This document shows, in pieces, positions 30,445-39,717 of a DNA stretch of 53,433 bases. This stretch comes from an uncultured Gammaproteobacteria bacterium. GTDB lineage: Bacteria > Patescibacteriota > Patescibacteriia > S139-126. The position numbers and the translations under genes were made by a program. The stretch is from positions 21,244-74,676 of the forward strand of contig CAZBLW010000002.1 in assembly GCA_964493305.1 (NCBI GenBank), given 5' to 3'. The first letter of the stretch is position 1. The number at the start of each line of letters is the position of its first letter. Under the pieces are notes generated by a model, which saw only the letters and a program-made list of their open reading frames with translations, had not been told where the DNA came from and searched no databases.

Positions 30445-30693
30445 ATGATTACTAAAGAATTTTTCAATCATTTGACCAAAACCATTGATGCAGTATTTTG
30501 GGGACTTTTTCTGCAAGGTATTACTTTGTTTTTACTGGCAGTACTGATTTTTATTTTTCCCAAAGCTTTGGTAATTTTGGCGGTTGTATTCTTTTTGTGG
30601 TTAGCTTTTATTTCTTTACTACTAGCGTATCGGGTGTGGAGTTCAAAAAAGAAATATCATAAATATTGGCAATGGTTGGAAGACAAAGAATAA
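30445..30693 (+). CDS. Small membrane hypothetical protein
   Basis: Two hydrophobic segments; abuts the next gene. Confidence 0.7.
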   Translation: MITKEFFNHLTKTIDAVFWGLFLQGITLFLLAVLIFIFPKALVILAVVFFLWLAFISLLLAYRVWSSKKKYHKYWQWLEDKE

Positions 30694-30694
30694 T

Positions 30695-31477
30695 ATGGGT
30701 AAAAAATTAGTTTTTGATTTAGAGACAAAAAAAACTTTTGACGAAGTCGGTGGGCACCAAAATGCCCATCTTTTAGGTATGTCGGTTTGTGGGGTATATG
30801 ATTATGAAACTGGTAAATATTCTGCTTACAAGGAGACAGAGATAAAAGAGTTAGAAAATTTATTCAAACAAGCGGAGTTACTTATTGGTTTTAATTCCAA
30901 ACATTTTGACAATACTGTTTTGCAACCATATTTCAATTTGGATTTAAAATCTATTCCTCATTTAGATATCTTAGAAGAGGTAGTAAAGCAACTTGGTTTT
31001 AGAATTAAGTTAGAAAGCTTAGCTCAGAGTACTTTGTACAGCGGAAAATCGGGTAGTGGGCTTGATGCTATTGCTTATTATCATGCGGGAGATTGGGATA
31101 AACTGATTAAATATTGTTTGGATGACGTACGAGTAACCAAAGATTTATATGAATATGGTCAAAAACACGGACGGTTATGGTACCAAACATCAGGTAAAAT
31201 AGTACCTTTCAATATTTCTTGGGCAGAGCAACCAAGTATTAAAGAAATATTGATGAAGGCCTTAAAGCAATATCAACAAGTGGAAATAGAATATTTAAAA
31301 GTAACTTCTGACAATACCAGTCGGGAAGTTAGAAAAATTGACATTATGGCCATGGATCAAGAAAGAATCAAAGCTTATGATCATACAGTTAAAGCCGAAA
31401 GGATATTTGCTATAGCTAAAATATTGAATCTCAAAGTTGTTGGTCAGATGTCTTCTTTCCAGCCCCAGCTGTTTTAA
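30695..31477 (+). CDS. RNase H-like DEDDy 3'-5' exonuclease (YprB/RNase_H_2-like) fused to a WYL-like domain
   Basis: ExoI FDLET, ExoII GFNSKHFD, ExoIII YCLDDV. C-terminal A----QQVEIEY...R-ID...L/IKAYDH...ERIF-I-KI. Ends QPQLF. Confidence 0.8.
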   Translation: MGKKLVFDLETKKTFDEVGGHQNAHLLGMSVCGVYDYETGKYSAYKETEIKELENLFKQAELLIGFNSKHFDNTVLQPYFNLDLKSIPHLDILEEVVKQLGFRIKLESLAQSTLYSGKSGSGLDAIAYYHAGDWDKLIKYCLDDVRVTKDLYEYGQKHGRLWYQTSGKIVPFNISWAEQPSIKEILMKALKQYQQVEIEYLKVTSDNTSREVRKIDIMAMDQERIKAYDHTVKAERIFAIAKILNLKVVGQMSSFQPQLF

Positions 31478-37691: not shown

Positions 37692-38840
37692 ATGAAAAAA
37701 ATATTTTTTTTAATACTTTTTAGTTGTTTGTTAGCCGTTCCGGCTAGCGCTCAAACAATCACGGACAATCATTTTGTCAGTGGTGAGGTTTTGAATATTG
37801 AAGGCAAATATGAAAAAGATTTATTTTTAGCGGGTACGCAAATAAATTTTTCTGGTCAGGTATTGGGTGATCTGTTCGTTTTTGGTCAGAATGTAAATAT
37901 CAAAGGTGAAGTGGGTGGGAGTATTTTTTTTCTTGCTAGTCAGATCAATCTTGATGCCAAAACCGGTGGTTCTGTTCGAGGTTTAGCACAAACAGTAAAT
38001 CTAAAAAATAGTATCGCTCACAATGCAACTATTTTTGGCAGTGTTATTAACTCTCAGGCGGAAGTCGGTTGGCATGGTTATTTTGTAGCTAGAGAAATGG
38101 AAATCGGCGGTGCATTTCAAAGATTGGATCTTAAGACAATGCAAGCTAAAATTAACGCGCAGATAGAAAATGATTTAGTTATTGTTAGTACAGATGCAAA
38201 CAATCAAATAGAAGTAATTGCTCCTGCAGAAATAGGCGGGAATGTTGATTTTACTGGAAGTAATAAGTTATCAATAGCCGATGATGTGAAAATATACGGC
38301 CAAGTCAATAAACATGATTTGATCCGACCGACAACAGAAAATTTTATTGATTATGGTCAGATATTTTGGTGGTTAGTTTGGTCATTTGCTATGATTTTAG
38401 TTGGTTTGGTGATGATTACTTGGTTTGGTAACAATTTATTGACCCTACCAAAAATAATTGTCCAAGAGAATTATAAATTACTGTTACCAGGATTAATTAT
38501 TTTTATATTATTACCTATTGTTGCCGTATTGTTATTTGTTAGTTTAATCGGTATTCCACTCGCTGTTATATTGTTTTTGTTTTACGCTTTGTCTTTTTAT
38601 TTGGGGCAAATTGTTTGGGCTATTTGGTTAGGTGATTTTATTCAACAAAAAATAAGGACTAAACCAAAGTTAACCAATGATTCCAAAAATTATTTATTTT
38701 GGTGTTTAGTTTTAGGAGTTTTAGTCTGGCGAGTAATTTTATCAATTCCATTATTGGGAGGTTTGCTAGCTTGGTTGTTTTATTTGATAATTTTAGGTAG
38801 CATTTGGCGGATACTTAAAGTGAATATTAAAGAAAATTAA
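37692..38840 (+). CDS. Secreted beta-helix (bactofilin-like) repeat protein with C-terminal multi-TM domain
   Basis: Signal peptide, repeated F--G--I---G-V-G units, then four hydrophobic helices. Confidence 0.7.
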   Translation: MKKIFFLILFSCLLAVPASAQTITDNHFVSGEVLNIEGKYEKDLFLAGTQINFSGQVLGDLFVFGQNVNIKGEVGGSIFFLASQINLDAKTGGSVRGLAQTVNLKNSIAHNATIFGSVINSQAEVGWHGYFVAREMEIGGAFQRLDLKTMQAKINAQIENDLVIVSTDANNQIEVIAPAEIGGNVDFTGSNKLSIADDVKIYGQVNKHDLIRPTTENFIDYGQIFWWLVWSFAMILVGLVMITWFGNNLLTLPKIIVQENYKLLLPGLIIFILLPIVAVLLFVSLIGIPLAVILFLFYALSFYLGQIVWAIWLGDFIQQKIRTKPKLTNDSKNYLFWCLVLGVLVWRVILSIPLLGGLLAWLFYLIILGSIWRILKVNIKEN

Positions 38841-38841
38841 T

Positions 38842-39717
38842 ATGAGTTTGGATATTAAAGTTAAAAAAAAGCCACCCAGTCAAAGTAATATTTCTCCTCG
38901 GCCAGTCAATCAGCCGGTAAAAGATGCAGCGCGGATCAATCTACCTCCCAGCAATCAAGGGTCGTCAACTTCTAGTCAGCCACCAAAAGCCAAAGCAAAA
39001 AAAACCAAGAGTAACATGTGGTGGTGGTTATTGTTTGTTTTATTGTTTGTACTGTTTGTAGGAGTTATTTATTATATTTGGCGTGACAATAATACAGATG
39101 ATGGTGTCAAGACAGCTAAACCAGTCTCAACTCCAGCTGGTATCGTATCTAATTTTGTGACGGAAACGACCCCTCCTCCCAATGCAGAAGTAGATTCTCC
39201 CCAGAACTTTGATATTAGTTTAGTGAATGAACGAGTAGCCGAATTTGAACAGATGACCAACAACTTTATTGATAGTGTGATTATAAATAGTAGCAGTAGC
39301 ACTACCACAGTAAAAAGCATTGAAGATTTTGATCAACAAGCTAGGTCACTAAATGATTTGGCTCAAACTTTAGCAGACTTTTTGCCCAATCAATATGAGC
39401 AACTACAAGTGTTAGCTAGAACTAGTAGTAACTATGATCAAACTAAAGATTATTTAGTATCAATTGATGACTATTTGGGTAGAGTGAGAGGAGAAATACA
39501 AGTGCTAGATGCTTTATTGGCTTTGGGAGAAAATCAAAATTTTAGTAATGAAATTACAGTCTCAGTGAAAAATTTAAATGAATATTTTAAGCAGATAAAG
39601 AATTTGACAAAATTAGTTGATCAATTGTTAACAAACACAGCCGGCAAAGAGACAGAAAATATTTTATCTACTAGCACTACTAGTACAGTATCCTCAACTG
39701 TTGATATAGAAAATTGA
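38842..39717 (+). CDS. Single-pass membrane protein: Pro/Ser-rich N-terminus, helical external domain
   Basis: WWWLLFVLLFVLFVGVIYYIW TM segment. Confidence 0.75.
   Translation: MSLDIKVKKKPPSQSNISPRPVNQPVKDAARINLPPSNQGSSTSSQPPKAKAKKTKSNMWWWLLFVLLFVLFVGVIYYIWRDNNTDDGVKTAKPVSTPAGIVSNFVTETTPPPNAEVDSPQNFDISLVNERVAEFEQMTNNFIDSVIINSSSSTTTVKSIEDFDQQARSLNDLAQTLADFLPNQYEQLQVLARTSSNYDQTKDYLVSIDDYLGRVRGEIQVLDALLALGENQNFSNEITVSVKNLNEYFKQIKNLTKLVDQLLTNTAGKETENILSTSTTSTVSSTVDIEN

What the first reader, a model, noticed from the sequence alone, without database searches (positions are those of the whole stretch)
30695..31477. DEDDy exonuclease-WYL fusion ending in a beta-clamp-like motif (QPQLF)
Seen: complete ExoI/II/III motifs (DLE, FD, YCLDD), then ~65 aa with WYL-domain layout (A----V-I-Y...R-I...AYDH...R-F-I-KI), and a terminal QPQLF (31460-74). 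Established: WYL domains sense nucleic acids in DNA-damage and anti-phage regulators, and Q-x-x-L-F (QL[S/D]LF) peptides bind the sliding clamp. Inference: a clamp-tethered, ssDNA-sensing 3'-5' exonuclease acting in proofreading, repair or defence. I am not aware of this three-part architecture having been characterised.
Basis: partly seen in the sequence, partly recalled or inferred. Interest (0 to 1): 0.7.

Follow-up and report, generated by a model that had tools for sequence, protein, structure and literature searches.

The report
Clamp-tailed DEDDy exonuclease with WYL domain
This gene of a tiny Patescibacteria (CPR) bacterium encodes a conserved, uncharacterised DNA-trimming enzyme (3'-5' exonuclease) that carries a single-stranded-DNA-binding WYL domain and ends in a peptide that looks like the tag used to dock onto the replication sliding clamp, so it is probably a replication-fidelity or DNA-repair enzyme.

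Summary
ORF 30695-31477 (+, 260 aa) has an intact DEDDy exonuclease core: D8, E10, N67, F71, D72, Y140 and D144 are invariant in 73 homologs. Its C-terminal domain is a WYL domain by Pfam and PADLOC, by a profile search of PDB sequences, and by Foldseek on a confident AlphaFold model. It ends in QPQLF.

The tail is a conserved short linear motif. In the WYL clade, 119 of 120 clusters end in Q-x-x-[LM]-[FLIV]. The ~190-aa relatives without a WYL domain keep a clamp-type tail (QASLF, QEVLF, NLTLPF) behind an unconserved linker. Only 2 of about 1,250 other ORFs in the same DNA end this way. Relatives fused to MrfA/YprA helicases have no tail (0 of 32).

The exonuclease belongs to the MrfB/YprB-type branch of PF13482. 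In one subclade a UvrD-like helicase lies directly upstream, and in another a Cas4-like nuclease and lexA flank it. The context is housekeeping, not defence.

My best reading is a beta-clamp-tethered 3'-5' DNA exonuclease, helped by ssDNA binding through the WYL domain, that acts in repair or extrinsic proofreading. Clamp binding, ssDNA binding and nuclease activity are inferred, not shown. I found no paper describing this architecture. I class it as a new variant of known kinds. Whole-genome searches were shut, so the proofreader idea could not be tested.

The parts
30695..31477 (+). Whole gene, 260 aa plus stop: exonuclease, WYL domain and clamp-type tail. The ATG lies 1 nt after the stop of the upstream 82-aa membrane ORF, and ddl starts 26 nt downstream.
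30695..31228 (+). DEDDy 3'-5' exonuclease domain of PolB/PolA-exo type (PF13482), residues 1-178. It includes the conserved beta-hairpin at 160-173 and W176, which close the domain in all family members.
   Evidence: Pfam; invariant columns; AF2 model; Foldseek hits to T7, RB69 and Sso PolB1 exo domains
30716..30724 (+). ExoI motif D8-L-E10
   Evidence: D8 and E10 invariant
30893..30910 (+). ExoII motif N67-S-K-H-F71-D72
   Evidence: N67, F71 and D72 invariant
31112..31126 (+). ExoIII motif Y140-C-L-D-D144 (the Y-x3-D that defines DEDDy)
   Evidence: Y140, C141 and D144 invariant
31238..31447 (+). WYL domain, residues ~182-251: one helix followed by five beta-strands. Y200 is invariant. K226, R236 and K242 align with ssDNA-contacting basic residues of CapW and DdPif1.
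31448..31474 (+). Unstructured C-terminal tail M252-F260. The putative beta-clamp-binding motif Q256-P-Q-L259-F260 is at 31460-31474.
   Evidence: No secondary structure and lower pLDDT; Q256 and L259 invariant; tail statistics
12890..14899 (-). UvrD/PcrA-like SF1 helicase (669 aa). It has the same Pfam architecture and about the same length (665-709 aa) as the helicase encoded directly upstream of the exonuclease in 24 related loci, but orthology was not tested. Here it lies about 16 kb away on the other strand. It is a possible functional partner (inference).

Best explanation
The gene encodes a housekeeping Mg2+-dependent 3'-5' DNA exonuclease of the MrfB/YprB-type (PolB-exo-like, DEDDy) branch of PF13482. 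Its flexible C-terminal peptide (S-F-Q-P-Q-L-F-COOH) docks into the hydrophobic cleft of the beta sliding clamp (DnaN). This brings the nuclease to clamp-marked 3' ends such as primer termini, nicks and gaps left by replication or excision. The WYL domain sits between the catalytic domain and the tail. It binds the adjacent single-stranded DNA (template or an unwound flap) and so raises affinity or gates activity. The enzyme then trims mismatched, damaged or displaced 3' ends. In lineages where a UvrD-like helicase is encoded directly upstream, that helicase probably supplies the unwound 3' strand. In other phyla the same exonuclease domain is fused to an MrfA helicase instead of carrying a clamp tail. 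What is shown here: motif integrity, the folds, the conservation pattern of the tail, the gene contexts and the domain architectures. What is inferred: nuclease activity and polarity, ssDNA binding, clamp binding, and the cellular pathway.
For: 1. Catalytic core. D8, E10, N67, F71, D72, Y140 and D144 are invariant. PF13482 hits 73 of 73 homologs and PF10108 (PolB_exo2) hits 71 of 73. The AF2 model has pLDDT 92 and pTM 0.88, and its best Foldseek matches are proofreading domains of T7, RB69 and Sso PolB1 polymerases.

2. Tail behaves as a short linear motif.
- 119 of 120 WYL-clade clusters end in Q..[LM][FLIV]. Q at -5 and L at -2 are each present in 119 of 120.
- The WYL-less ~190-aa relatives keep QASLF, QTSLF, QEVLF or hexapeptide-like NLTLPF and FSLPF behind a linker that carries little information (0.7-1.3 bits at positions -7 to -14).
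- 60 of the 62 ORFs with such an ending, out of 1,313 ORFs, are this protein.
- The tail has no secondary structure and lower pLDDT.
- 0 of 32 helicase-fused or N-terminally extended relatives have the tail. This fits the idea that the tail is one of two alternative tethers.
- The sequences fit the published pentapeptide QL[SD]LF and hexapeptide clamp-motif classes (established knowledge). A stand-alone exonuclease that binds the clamp through a C-terminal CBM has a precedent in mycobacterial DnaQ (PMC11348249).

3. WYL domain. A family profile matches the Pif1-helicase WYL (8bnv, E=1.8e-6), PafBC (6.7e-6) and CapW. Foldseek on the isolated domain gives CapW at TMq 0.70 and rmsd 2.5 A, plus BrxR, PafBC and DriD. 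K226, R236 and K242 align with ssDNA-contacting basic residues.

4. Repair context. A UvrD-like helicase lies directly upstream on the same strand in 24 of 71 loci, with gaps of 29-52 nt in about 11 of them. A Cas4-like PD-(D/E)XK nuclease, a small IMS_HHH ORF and LexA flank the gene in 10 loci. MrfA-helicase fusions exist, and MrfB is a biochemically shown Mg2+-dependent repair exonuclease (10.1101/426304).

5. Housekeeping distribution. At least 584 species genomes encode a relative, the representative library holds 3,439 clusters at 50% identity, and the tree follows taxonomy.
Against: No experiment or complex prediction supports clamp binding. Neither the cognate DnaN nor the clamp motifs of other clients in these lineages could be examined, because whole-genome tools were shut. 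No canonical clamp client with a clear motif was found in the fetched DNA. Most of the UvrD adjacency comes from one subclade, so it represents few independent events and could be plain synteny. In this window the helicase is 16 kb away, and the gene sits in an operon with membrane and cell-wall genes. The WYL score of this particular protein is below Pfam's threshold. One of the basic ssDNA-contact positions is V232 here. A minority of family members lack a recognisable tail (6 of 29 short forms and 2 of 5 WYLb).
Confidence: 0.62

Rival explanations
1. It is the replicative proofreader of Patescibacteria, a functional equivalent of Pol III epsilon. It would ride on the clamp beside DnaE and excise misincorporated nucleotides during chromosome replication, rather than act in repair.
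For: It has a clamp-type tail and an exo fold of polymerase-proofreading type. It is near-ubiquitous, single-copy and vertically inherited in CPR. One source names a homolog 'DNA polymerase III epsilon subunit-like'. Mycobacterial DnaQ sets a precedent for a clamp-bound extra proofreader. Some bacteria with an inactive PHP domain lack a recognisable DnaQ and are proposed to use non-canonical proofreaders (PMC12926913).
Against: Its nearest relatives are MrfB-type repair exonucleases fused to or paired with helicases. The conserved neighbours are repair genes (UvrD-like, Cas4-like nuclease, LexA), not replisome genes. No element for binding the polymerase alpha subunit is evident. The presence or absence of DnaQ and the state of the DnaE PHP site in these genomes could not be checked.
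Confidence: 0.2
2. It is a WYL-regulated anti-phage or anti-plasmid nuclease, in which the WYL domain senses a nucleic-acid signal of infection and switches on DNA degradation.
For: WYL domains are common in defence regulators such as CapW and BrxR. PADLOC's CRISPR-associated WYL model hits residues 184-249.
Against: Only the generic WYL domain model hits, and no defence nuclease model does. There is no HTH or WCX domain. The context is housekeeping synteny, not a defence island. The phylogeny follows taxonomy. The WYL domain is dispensable in many lineages, whereas the clamp-type tail is kept.
Confidence: 0.03
3. The C-terminal Q-x-x-L-F is not a clamp-binding motif. It would instead be a docking peptide for another partner (for example the helicase or a protease adaptor), or an intramolecular autoinhibitory tail. 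The enzyme could also act on RNA 3' ends, as RNase D and RNase T do.
For: Clamp binding is untested. DEDDy enzymes include RNases. The extra conservation upstream of the motif in the WYL clade (G250, M252, S254 and an aromatic at -6) goes beyond the canonical clamp motif. The UvrD-like neighbours have a conserved tail of their own, which shows that these lineages use several terminal peptides.
Against: The invariant positions (Q at -5, L at -2, F/L/I at -1), the position at the exact C-terminus, and the hexapeptide variants (NLTLPF) all match the two known clamp-motif classes. The best structural matches are DNA-polymerase proofreading domains. The sister architectures are DNA-helicase fusions.
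Confidence: 0.12

Closest known systems
MrfB/YprB exonuclease of the MrfAB (YprAB) mitomycin-repair pair (Bacillus subtilis), and MrfA-helicase-exonuclease fusions
   Same: It has the same Pfam family (PF13482) and a PolB-exo-like DnaQ-superfamily fold. The closest non-CPR relatives of this protein in the representative library are C-terminal exonuclease domains of DEAD + Helicase_C + WHD_HRQ1 + MZB (MrfA-type) helicases. MrfB is a shown Mg2+-dependent exonuclease acting in DNA repair.
   Different: There is no MrfA/YprA partner here or in the related loci; the neighbouring helicase, where present, is SF1 UvrD-like. There is no TPR domain. Instead the protein has a WYL domain and a clamp-type tail, which the fused forms lack (0 of 32). 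ExoIII is Y-x3-D (DEDDy), whereas the MrfB paper highlights a conserved His.
Mycobacterial DnaQ (additional proofreader) and E. coli Pol III epsilon
   Same: These are stand-alone 3'-5' exonucleases that reach their substrate by binding the beta clamp through a short motif. In mycobacterial DnaQ that motif is C-terminal (PMC11348249; PMC3664792).
   Different: They belong to a different branch of the superfamily (DEDDh, PF00929), have no WYL domain, and epsilon also binds the alpha PHP domain. A proofreading role for the present protein is untested.
WYL domains of bacterial Pif1 helicases (TePif1, DdPif1, SsPif1)
   Same: They are the best sequence matches to this C-terminal domain (8bnv, E=1.8e-6). 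In them a WYL domain is attached to a DNA-processing enzyme as an accessory ssDNA-binding module rather than a transcriptional switch. The basic residues corresponding to DdPif1 R495 and R501 are kept (R236, K242).
   Different: The host enzyme is a helicase, not a nuclease, and no clamp motif is reported.
wHTH-WYL-WCX regulators (PafBC, DriD, CapW, BrxR)
   Same: They share the WYL fold (Foldseek TMq 0.63-0.71) and bind ssDNA through basic residues on the same face.
   Different: This protein has no HTH or WCX domain and no evidence of dimeric regulator architecture. The canonical W and Y of the WYL/RWHVR motif are replaced (Q-E-R-I-K here).

Membership tests
DEDDy 3'-5' exonucleases (DnaQ-like superfamily; Pfam PF13482 RNase_H_2 / PF10108 PolB_exo2) | ExoI D-x-E, ExoII N-x2-3-[FY]-D and ExoIII Y-x3-D acidic/Tyr motifs all present | tested here: met
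   D8/E10, N67/F71/D72 and Y140/D144 were read from the DNA and are invariant in 73 homologs
DEDDy 3'-5' exonucleases (DnaQ-like superfamily; Pfam PF13482 RNase_H_2 / PF10108 PolB_exo2) | Profile match above the curated threshold, and an RNase H-like fold resembling polymerase proofreading domains | tested here: met
   PF13482 scores 43.6 bits against a cut-off of 22 and hits 73 of 73 homologs. Foldseek matches T7, RB69 and Sso PolB1 exo domains.
DEDDy 3'-5' exonucleases (DnaQ-like superfamily; Pfam PF13482 RNase_H_2 / PF10108 PolB_exo2) | Metal-dependent 3'-5' exonuclease activity | not testable with these tools
   Needs a biochemical assay
MrfB/YprB (partner of MrfA/YprA helicase) | Encoded next to, or fused with, an MrfA/YprA (DEAD + MZB) helicase | tested here: not met
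   There is no MrfA-type helicase among the Pfam-scanned window ORFs or the recurrent neighbour clusters of the 71 loci analysed. The neighbour is UvrD-like SF1 in 24 loci. Fusions occur only in more distant relatives.
MrfB/YprB (partner of MrfA/YprA helicase) | C-terminal TPR domain (B. subtilis type) | tested here: not met
   The C-terminal domain is WYL. The MrfB paper notes that the TPR domain is also absent in Pseudomonas MrfB.
WYL domain (PF13280) | Sm/SH3-like five-stranded beta-barrel preceded by a helix, structurally matching solved WYL domains | tested here: met
   The AF2 model of the domain alone has pLDDT 86.7. Top Foldseek hits are PafBC, CapW (TMq 0.70, rmsd 2.5 A), BrxR and DriD.
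WYL domain (PF13280) | Sequence-profile match above the curated threshold | tested here: inconclusive
   This protein scores 17 bits against a cut-off of 21.8. However, the PADLOC WYL model gives 26.8 bits and E=8.4e-7, 47 of 73 homologs hit at E<=0.01 with the best at 5.7e-9, and the family profile matches PDB WYL domains at E=1.8e-6.
WYL domain (PF13280) | Basic ligand-binding residues, and actual ssDNA or ligand binding | tested here: inconclusive
   K226, R236 and K242 align with contact residues of CapW and DdPif1, but the first Arg of RWHVR and the DdPif1 R491 equivalent (V232 here) are not kept. Binding itself is not testable here.
Beta-clamp (DnaN) client proteins carrying a clamp-binding motif | Peptide matching QL[SD]LF / Q-x-x-L-(x)-F in an exposed, disordered terminus or loop | tested here: met
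   Q256-P-Q-L-F260-COOH. The tail has no secondary structure, and pLDDT falls to 66-73.
Beta-clamp (DnaN) client proteins carrying a clamp-binding motif | Motif conserved among orthologs while flanking linker residues vary | tested here: met
   119 of 120 WYL-clade clusters and 23 of 29 short forms carry it. Linker information is 0.7-1.3 bits at -7 to -14, against 2.3-3.5 bits at -5, -2 and -1. The background is 2 of about 1,250 ORFs.
Beta-clamp (DnaN) client proteins carrying a clamp-binding motif | Physical binding to the cognate clamp cleft | not testable with these tools
Pol III epsilon (DnaQ) proofreading subunit | DEDDh motif (PF00929) and a C-terminal segment that binds the alpha PHP domain | tested here: not met
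   ExoIII is Y-x3-D. There is no PF00929 hit and no NCBIfam hit. The C-terminus is a WYL domain plus a clamp-type tail.
WYL-regulated defence systems (CapW/BrxR-type) | wHTH-WYL-WCX architecture next to a defence operon | tested here: not met
   There is no HTH or WCX domain. The neighbours are housekeeping genes. PADLOC hits the WYL model only.

The most novel reading that the evidence does not exclude
This family is the long-sought or alternative replicative proofreader of Patescibacteria and some other streamlined phyla. It would be a PolB-type DEDDy exonuclease that replaces epsilon/DnaQ, travels with the replisome on the beta clamp through its C-terminal tail, and in the Paceibacteria/ABY1 lineages uses a WYL domain to detect the frayed single-stranded 3' end or template. 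This would be a third solution to bacterial proofreading beside DnaQ and the PHP domain.
Probability: 0.2. Interest if true: 0.8.

Novelty: new variant of a known kind. Interest (0 to 1): 0.6.

Why it matters
Patescibacteria (CPR) make up a large share of bacterial diversity, have minimal genomes, and are almost entirely uncultured, so little is known about how they keep their DNA accurate. This work defines a widespread family: at least 584 species genomes and 3,439 clusters at 50% identity. Databases annotate it only as 'ribonuclease H-like domain-containing protein'. Its architecture gives a concrete and easily tested mechanism, a 3'-5' exonuclease delivered to DNA ends by the sliding clamp. 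The family also shows modular swapping of the tether, with a clamp tail in some members and an MrfA-helicase fusion in others. It adds a second case, after Pif1, of a WYL domain serving a DNA-processing enzyme rather than a transcription factor. If the enzyme proves to be a proofreader, it would be a new route to replication fidelity in bacteria.

Tried and rejected
- Direct sequence search of PDB with the full protein gave nothing meaningful, and NCBIfam gave nothing.
- Foldseek with the full-length model was dominated by polymerase exo domains and by retroviral integrases (RNase H fold plus SH3-like domain). It did not settle the C-terminal domain, so that domain was folded and searched separately.
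- I looked for canonical clamp clients (DinB, DnaE, PolA, LigA, MutS, MutL) in the ~1.2 Mb of fetched CPR DNA to calibrate lineage-specific clamp motifs. Only two DinB-like ORFs and a PolA fragment turned up, none with a clear motif. Neither dnaN nor a clamp client was found among the 30 window ORFs scanned by Pfam.
- Whole-genome search and download were shut. The DnaQ, PHP, PolA-exo, MutS and MutL census and the dnaN retrieval could therefore not be done.
- Large ORFs downstream of short-form genes (L074, L046) were checked as possible dnaE. From their sequences they do not look like dnaE.
- Independent gain of the WYL domain was considered because WYL-bearing forms sit in at least 3 places in the tree. 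However, the WYLa and WYLb WYL domains are 23-46% identical to each other, so one early insertion with later losses is equally possible. I left this open.
- The defence reading was rejected on context and the PADLOC result.
- Literature searches for this architecture (WYL with clamp-binding motif; WYL with exonuclease and Patescibacteria; PF13482) found no description.
Full report
**The observation**

The window carries an ORF at 30695-31477 on the + strand that encodes 260 aa. Reading the DNA directly:
- GAT-TTA-GAG at 30716-30724 encodes D8-L-E10 (ExoI).
- AAT...TTT-GAC at 30893-30910 encodes N67-S-K-H-F71-D72 (ExoII).
- TAT-TGT-TTG-GAT-GAC at 31112-31126 encodes Y140-C-L-D-D144 (ExoIII).
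- CAG-CCC-CAG-CTG-TTT-TAA at 31460-31477 encodes Q-P-Q-L-F followed by the stop.

**The exonuclease domain**

Pfam assigns residues 6-154 to PF13482 (RNase_H_2, E=3.9e-11), with weaker matches to the PolB-type (PF10108) and PolA-type (PF01612) proofreading domains. A search of 5.8 billion proteins returned 1,150 relatives, the best 120 of them 254-278 aa long. Where a source gives a name, they come mostly from Patescibacteria (Komeilibacteria, Nomurabacteria, Parcubacteria) and are called only 'ribonuclease H-like domain-containing protein' or 'hypothetical'.

In a 73-sequence alignment every catalytic and motif residue is invariant: D8, E10, N67, F71, D72, Y140 and D144. An AlphaFold2 model built on that alignment is confident (pLDDT 92.1, pTM 0.88). 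Its best matches among solved structures are the proofreading domains of T7 DNA polymerase, RB69 gp43 and Sulfolobus PolB1. The N-terminal 178 residues are thus an intact DEDDy exonuclease of polymerase-proofreading type. Activity is inferred, not measured.

**The WYL domain**

For this one protein the Pfam WYL score is below threshold (17 bits against 21.8), although it spans the whole profile. The assignment becomes solid at family level:
- 47 of 73 homologs hit PF13280 at E<=0.01, the best at 5.7e-9.
- PADLOC's WYL model hits residues 184-249 of this protein at E=8.4e-7.
- A profile of the last 90 residues from 39 genomes finds the C-terminal WYL domains of Pif1 helicases (8bnv, E=1.8e-6; 8bns), PafBC (6.7e-6), PafC and CapW among PDB sequences. 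The paper behind 8BNV and 8BNS confirms that these are Pif1 helicases with a C-terminal WYL domain.
- The domain folded alone (pLDDT 86.7) is one helix plus five strands. Its top Foldseek matches are PafBC, CapW (TMq 0.70, rmsd 2.5 A), BrxR (TMq 0.71) and DriD.

In the HMM alignments, K226 aligns with the second Arg of CapW's RWHVR motif and R236 with the Arg of 'FRDF'. R236 and K242 correspond to DdPif1 R495 and R501. Published work implicates all of these in ssDNA binding. The first RWHVR Arg and the DdPif1 R491 position (V232 here, R in the family consensus) are not kept. ssDNA binding is plausible but unproven. The closest relatives suggest an accessory ssDNA-binding role, as in Pif1, rather than a regulatory sensor role.

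**The tail**

This is the most informative part.
- Among the 120 best clusters, 119 end in Q-x-x-[LM]-[FLIV]-COOH. Q at -5 and L at -2 are each present in 119 of 120, and the last residue is F in 58, L in 41 and I in 19.
- In the C-terminal 90 residues, the only invariant columns across 39 genomes are Y200 of the WYL domain and Q256.
- A scan of one genome per GTDB species found at least 584 genomes encoding a relative.
- Extracting the full ORFs showed a second architecture of ~190-200 aa with no WYL domain at all, in Saccharibacteria, Doudna-, Ryan-, Magasanik- and Taylorbacteria, Omnitrophota and others. These proteins still end in QASLF, QTSLF, QEVLF or QAALF, or in hexapeptide-like NLTLPF, FSLPF or PTSLF, at the exact C-terminus.
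- In these short forms the 8-10 residues before the motif carry almost no information (0.7-1.3 bits), while positions -5, -2 and -1 carry 2.3-3.5 bits. That is the signature of a short linear docking motif on a flexible linker.
- As a control, of 1,313 non-nested ORFs in the 80 loci plus the window, 62 end in such a motif, and 60 of those are this exonuclease.
- The model shows no secondary structure and reduced confidence in the last nine residues.

The sequences fall into the two classical beta-clamp-binding classes, pentapeptide QL[SD]LF and hexapeptide QLxLxL/F (established knowledge). A stand-alone exonuclease that binds the clamp through a C-terminal motif has a precedent in mycobacterial DnaQ (PMC11348249). 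The tail is conserved, so the 'not conserved' half is not met. The 'does not bind DnaN' half cannot be tested with these tools.

**Family structure**

An exhaustive profile search of 1.84 billion representatives found 3,439 clusters at E<=1e-3 and 398 at E<=1e-30. Beside the two stand-alone forms, the nearest relatives are 920-1,180-aa proteins in which the same exonuclease domain forms the C-terminus of a DEAD + Helicase_C + WHD_HRQ1 + MZB helicase. [quoted passage not shown]

These fused forms, and forms with N-terminal extensions, end right after the conserved '...IPVxW' hairpin. None of the 32 carries the tail. The exonuclease therefore appears to use alternative tethers, either a covalently attached helicase or a clamp-type peptide. 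B. subtilis MrfB is a shown Mg2+-dependent exonuclease of a dedicated repair pathway and was modelled on a PolB-family exo domain.

A maximum-likelihood tree of the exonuclease domains places the window next to Candidatus Paceibacter (92% identity). The main WYL-bearing group forms one clade (support 92/85). Five other WYL-bearing proteins are scattered among short forms, and four of those five have Pfam-confirmed WYL domains. Their WYL domains are 23-46% identical to those of the main clade. A single early insertion followed by losses is therefore as likely as repeated gain. Either way, the tail persists whether or not the WYL domain is present.

**Context**

In this window the gene lies in a tightly packed co-directional string: EamA-like small membrane protein, 82-aa membrane protein (its stop is 1 nt before the ATG), the exonuclease, Ddl, a DoxX-like protein and a NUDIX hydrolase. 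YchF lies upstream and SHMT and Elp3 downstream. The rest of the window is housekeeping: IF2, RNase Y, YmdB, UvrD-like helicase, PGM, MurI, FtsK, RecA and others.

Clustering the neighbours in 71 loci gave these patterns:
- A UvrD-like helicase sits directly upstream on the same strand in 24 loci, with intergenic gaps of 29-52 nt in about eleven.
- A Kerfeldbacteria-type arrangement occurs in ten loci: a predicted membrane-anchored ORF of ~275 aa (not annotated), a Cas4-like PD-(D/E)XK nuclease, the exonuclease, a small IMS_HHH ORF and LexA.
- The YchF, SHMT and Elp3 synteny is shared with the window.

The UvrD adjacency is largely confined to one subclade, so it counts as few independent events. 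In the window's genome a UvrD-like helicase of the same size and Pfam architecture lies 16 kb away on the other strand (12890-14899). The repair flavour of the neighbours, together with the helicase fusions in other phyla, points to DNA repair or 3'-end processing. Nothing points to phage defence: PADLOC hits only the generic WYL model, and the gene is not in a variable island.

**Interpretation**

The best-supported mechanism is a clamp-tethered 3'-5' DNA exonuclease. The tail docks on DnaN left at primer termini, nicks or gaps. The WYL domain holds adjacent ssDNA. The DEDDy site trims the 3' end, with a UvrD-like helicase as a likely helper in some lineages. I put this at about 0.6.

A narrower and more exciting version is that the protein is the replicative proofreader of CPR bacteria. 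That remains possible (about 0.2). The presence of DnaQ, the state of the DnaE PHP site and the clamp motifs of other clients are therefore unknown.

**Novelty**

Full-text searches found no paper that combines WYL with a clamp-binding motif, and none describing this family. The 2026 survey of bacterial polymerases and their nuclease partners does not mention Patescibacteria or this family.

An earlier AI follow-up in this scan reached a similar reading on a homolog in another genome. That is a lead that agrees, not independent evidence. The present work adds:
- the WYL-less tailed forms;
- the background statistic for the tail;
- the tail-less MrfA fusions;
- the tree;
- the neighbourhood census;
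- the mapping of ssDNA-contact residues.

Each component is a known kind: an MrfB-type exonuclease, a WYL domain and a clamp motif. The combination, and its role as a CPR-wide housekeeping enzyme, is a new variant.

Noticed in passing
L005, L009, L012, L015, L017, L019, L022, L024, L027, L030 (helicase genes ending ~30-50 nt before position 10001); window 12890-14899 (-): The UvrD-like helicases encoded just upstream of the exonuclease share their own conserved extreme C-terminal peptide...[GS]FLPD[VI][SD][ED]W-COOH. The window's UvrD-like protein ends ...DSDDELPTIEYD. This is an acidic and aromatic terminal peptide reminiscent of SSB-type docking tails, and its partner is unknown.
   Followed up: no
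L020, L023, L029, L031-L036, L047 (around 8000-12500): A Kerfeldbacteria-type conserved cluster: a predicted membrane-anchored ORF of ~275 aa (not annotated), a Cas4-like PD-(D/E)XK nuclease with a C-terminal Cys cluster (PF12705/PF01930), the exonuclease, a small 80-120-aa ORF with only the IMS_HHH thumb motif of Y-family polymerases (opposite strand), and LexA (opposite strand). There are no CRISPR-cas genes.
   Followed up: partly
L040, L042, L044, L058, L061, L064 (gene directly downstream of the exonuclease): A PF04308 'RNaseH_like' (DUF458) protein of ~160-190 aa is encoded immediately downstream, on the same strand, of the exonuclease in six Saccharibacteria/Ryanbacteria-type loci. These include both short and WYLb forms.
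   Followed up: no
L048, L059, L060, L080 (+3 gene): In four of the eight Doudnabacteria-type loci that share the Lgt-like and membrane-protein genes after the exonuclease, the next gene is a ~95-aa ORF with the PCHRVV signature of O6-alkylguanine-DNA alkyltransferase. This annotation rests on the motif only.
   Followed up: no
window 15658-17196 (+), 37692-38840 (+), 38842-39717 (+): Three sizeable ORFs (512, 382 and 291 aa) have no Pfam match at the thresholds used.
   Followed up: no
record titles of L002, L004, L012, L016, L020, L021, L027, L028, L030, L033, L034, L039, L045, L063, L074, L075: Many MAG records are titled 'uncultured Gammaproteobacteria bacterium', yet they carry this CPR-type gene in CPR-type synteny and group with Patescibacteria in the tree. 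The deposited taxonomy labels look wrong.
   Followed up: no
window 30445-30697: The 82-aa two-helix membrane ORF upstream ends 1 nt before the exonuclease ATG. This ORF (cluster c19) is kept at the same position in 4 related sources (window, L001, L002, L011), where it replaces the UvrD-like gene found there in other lineages.
   Followed up: partly
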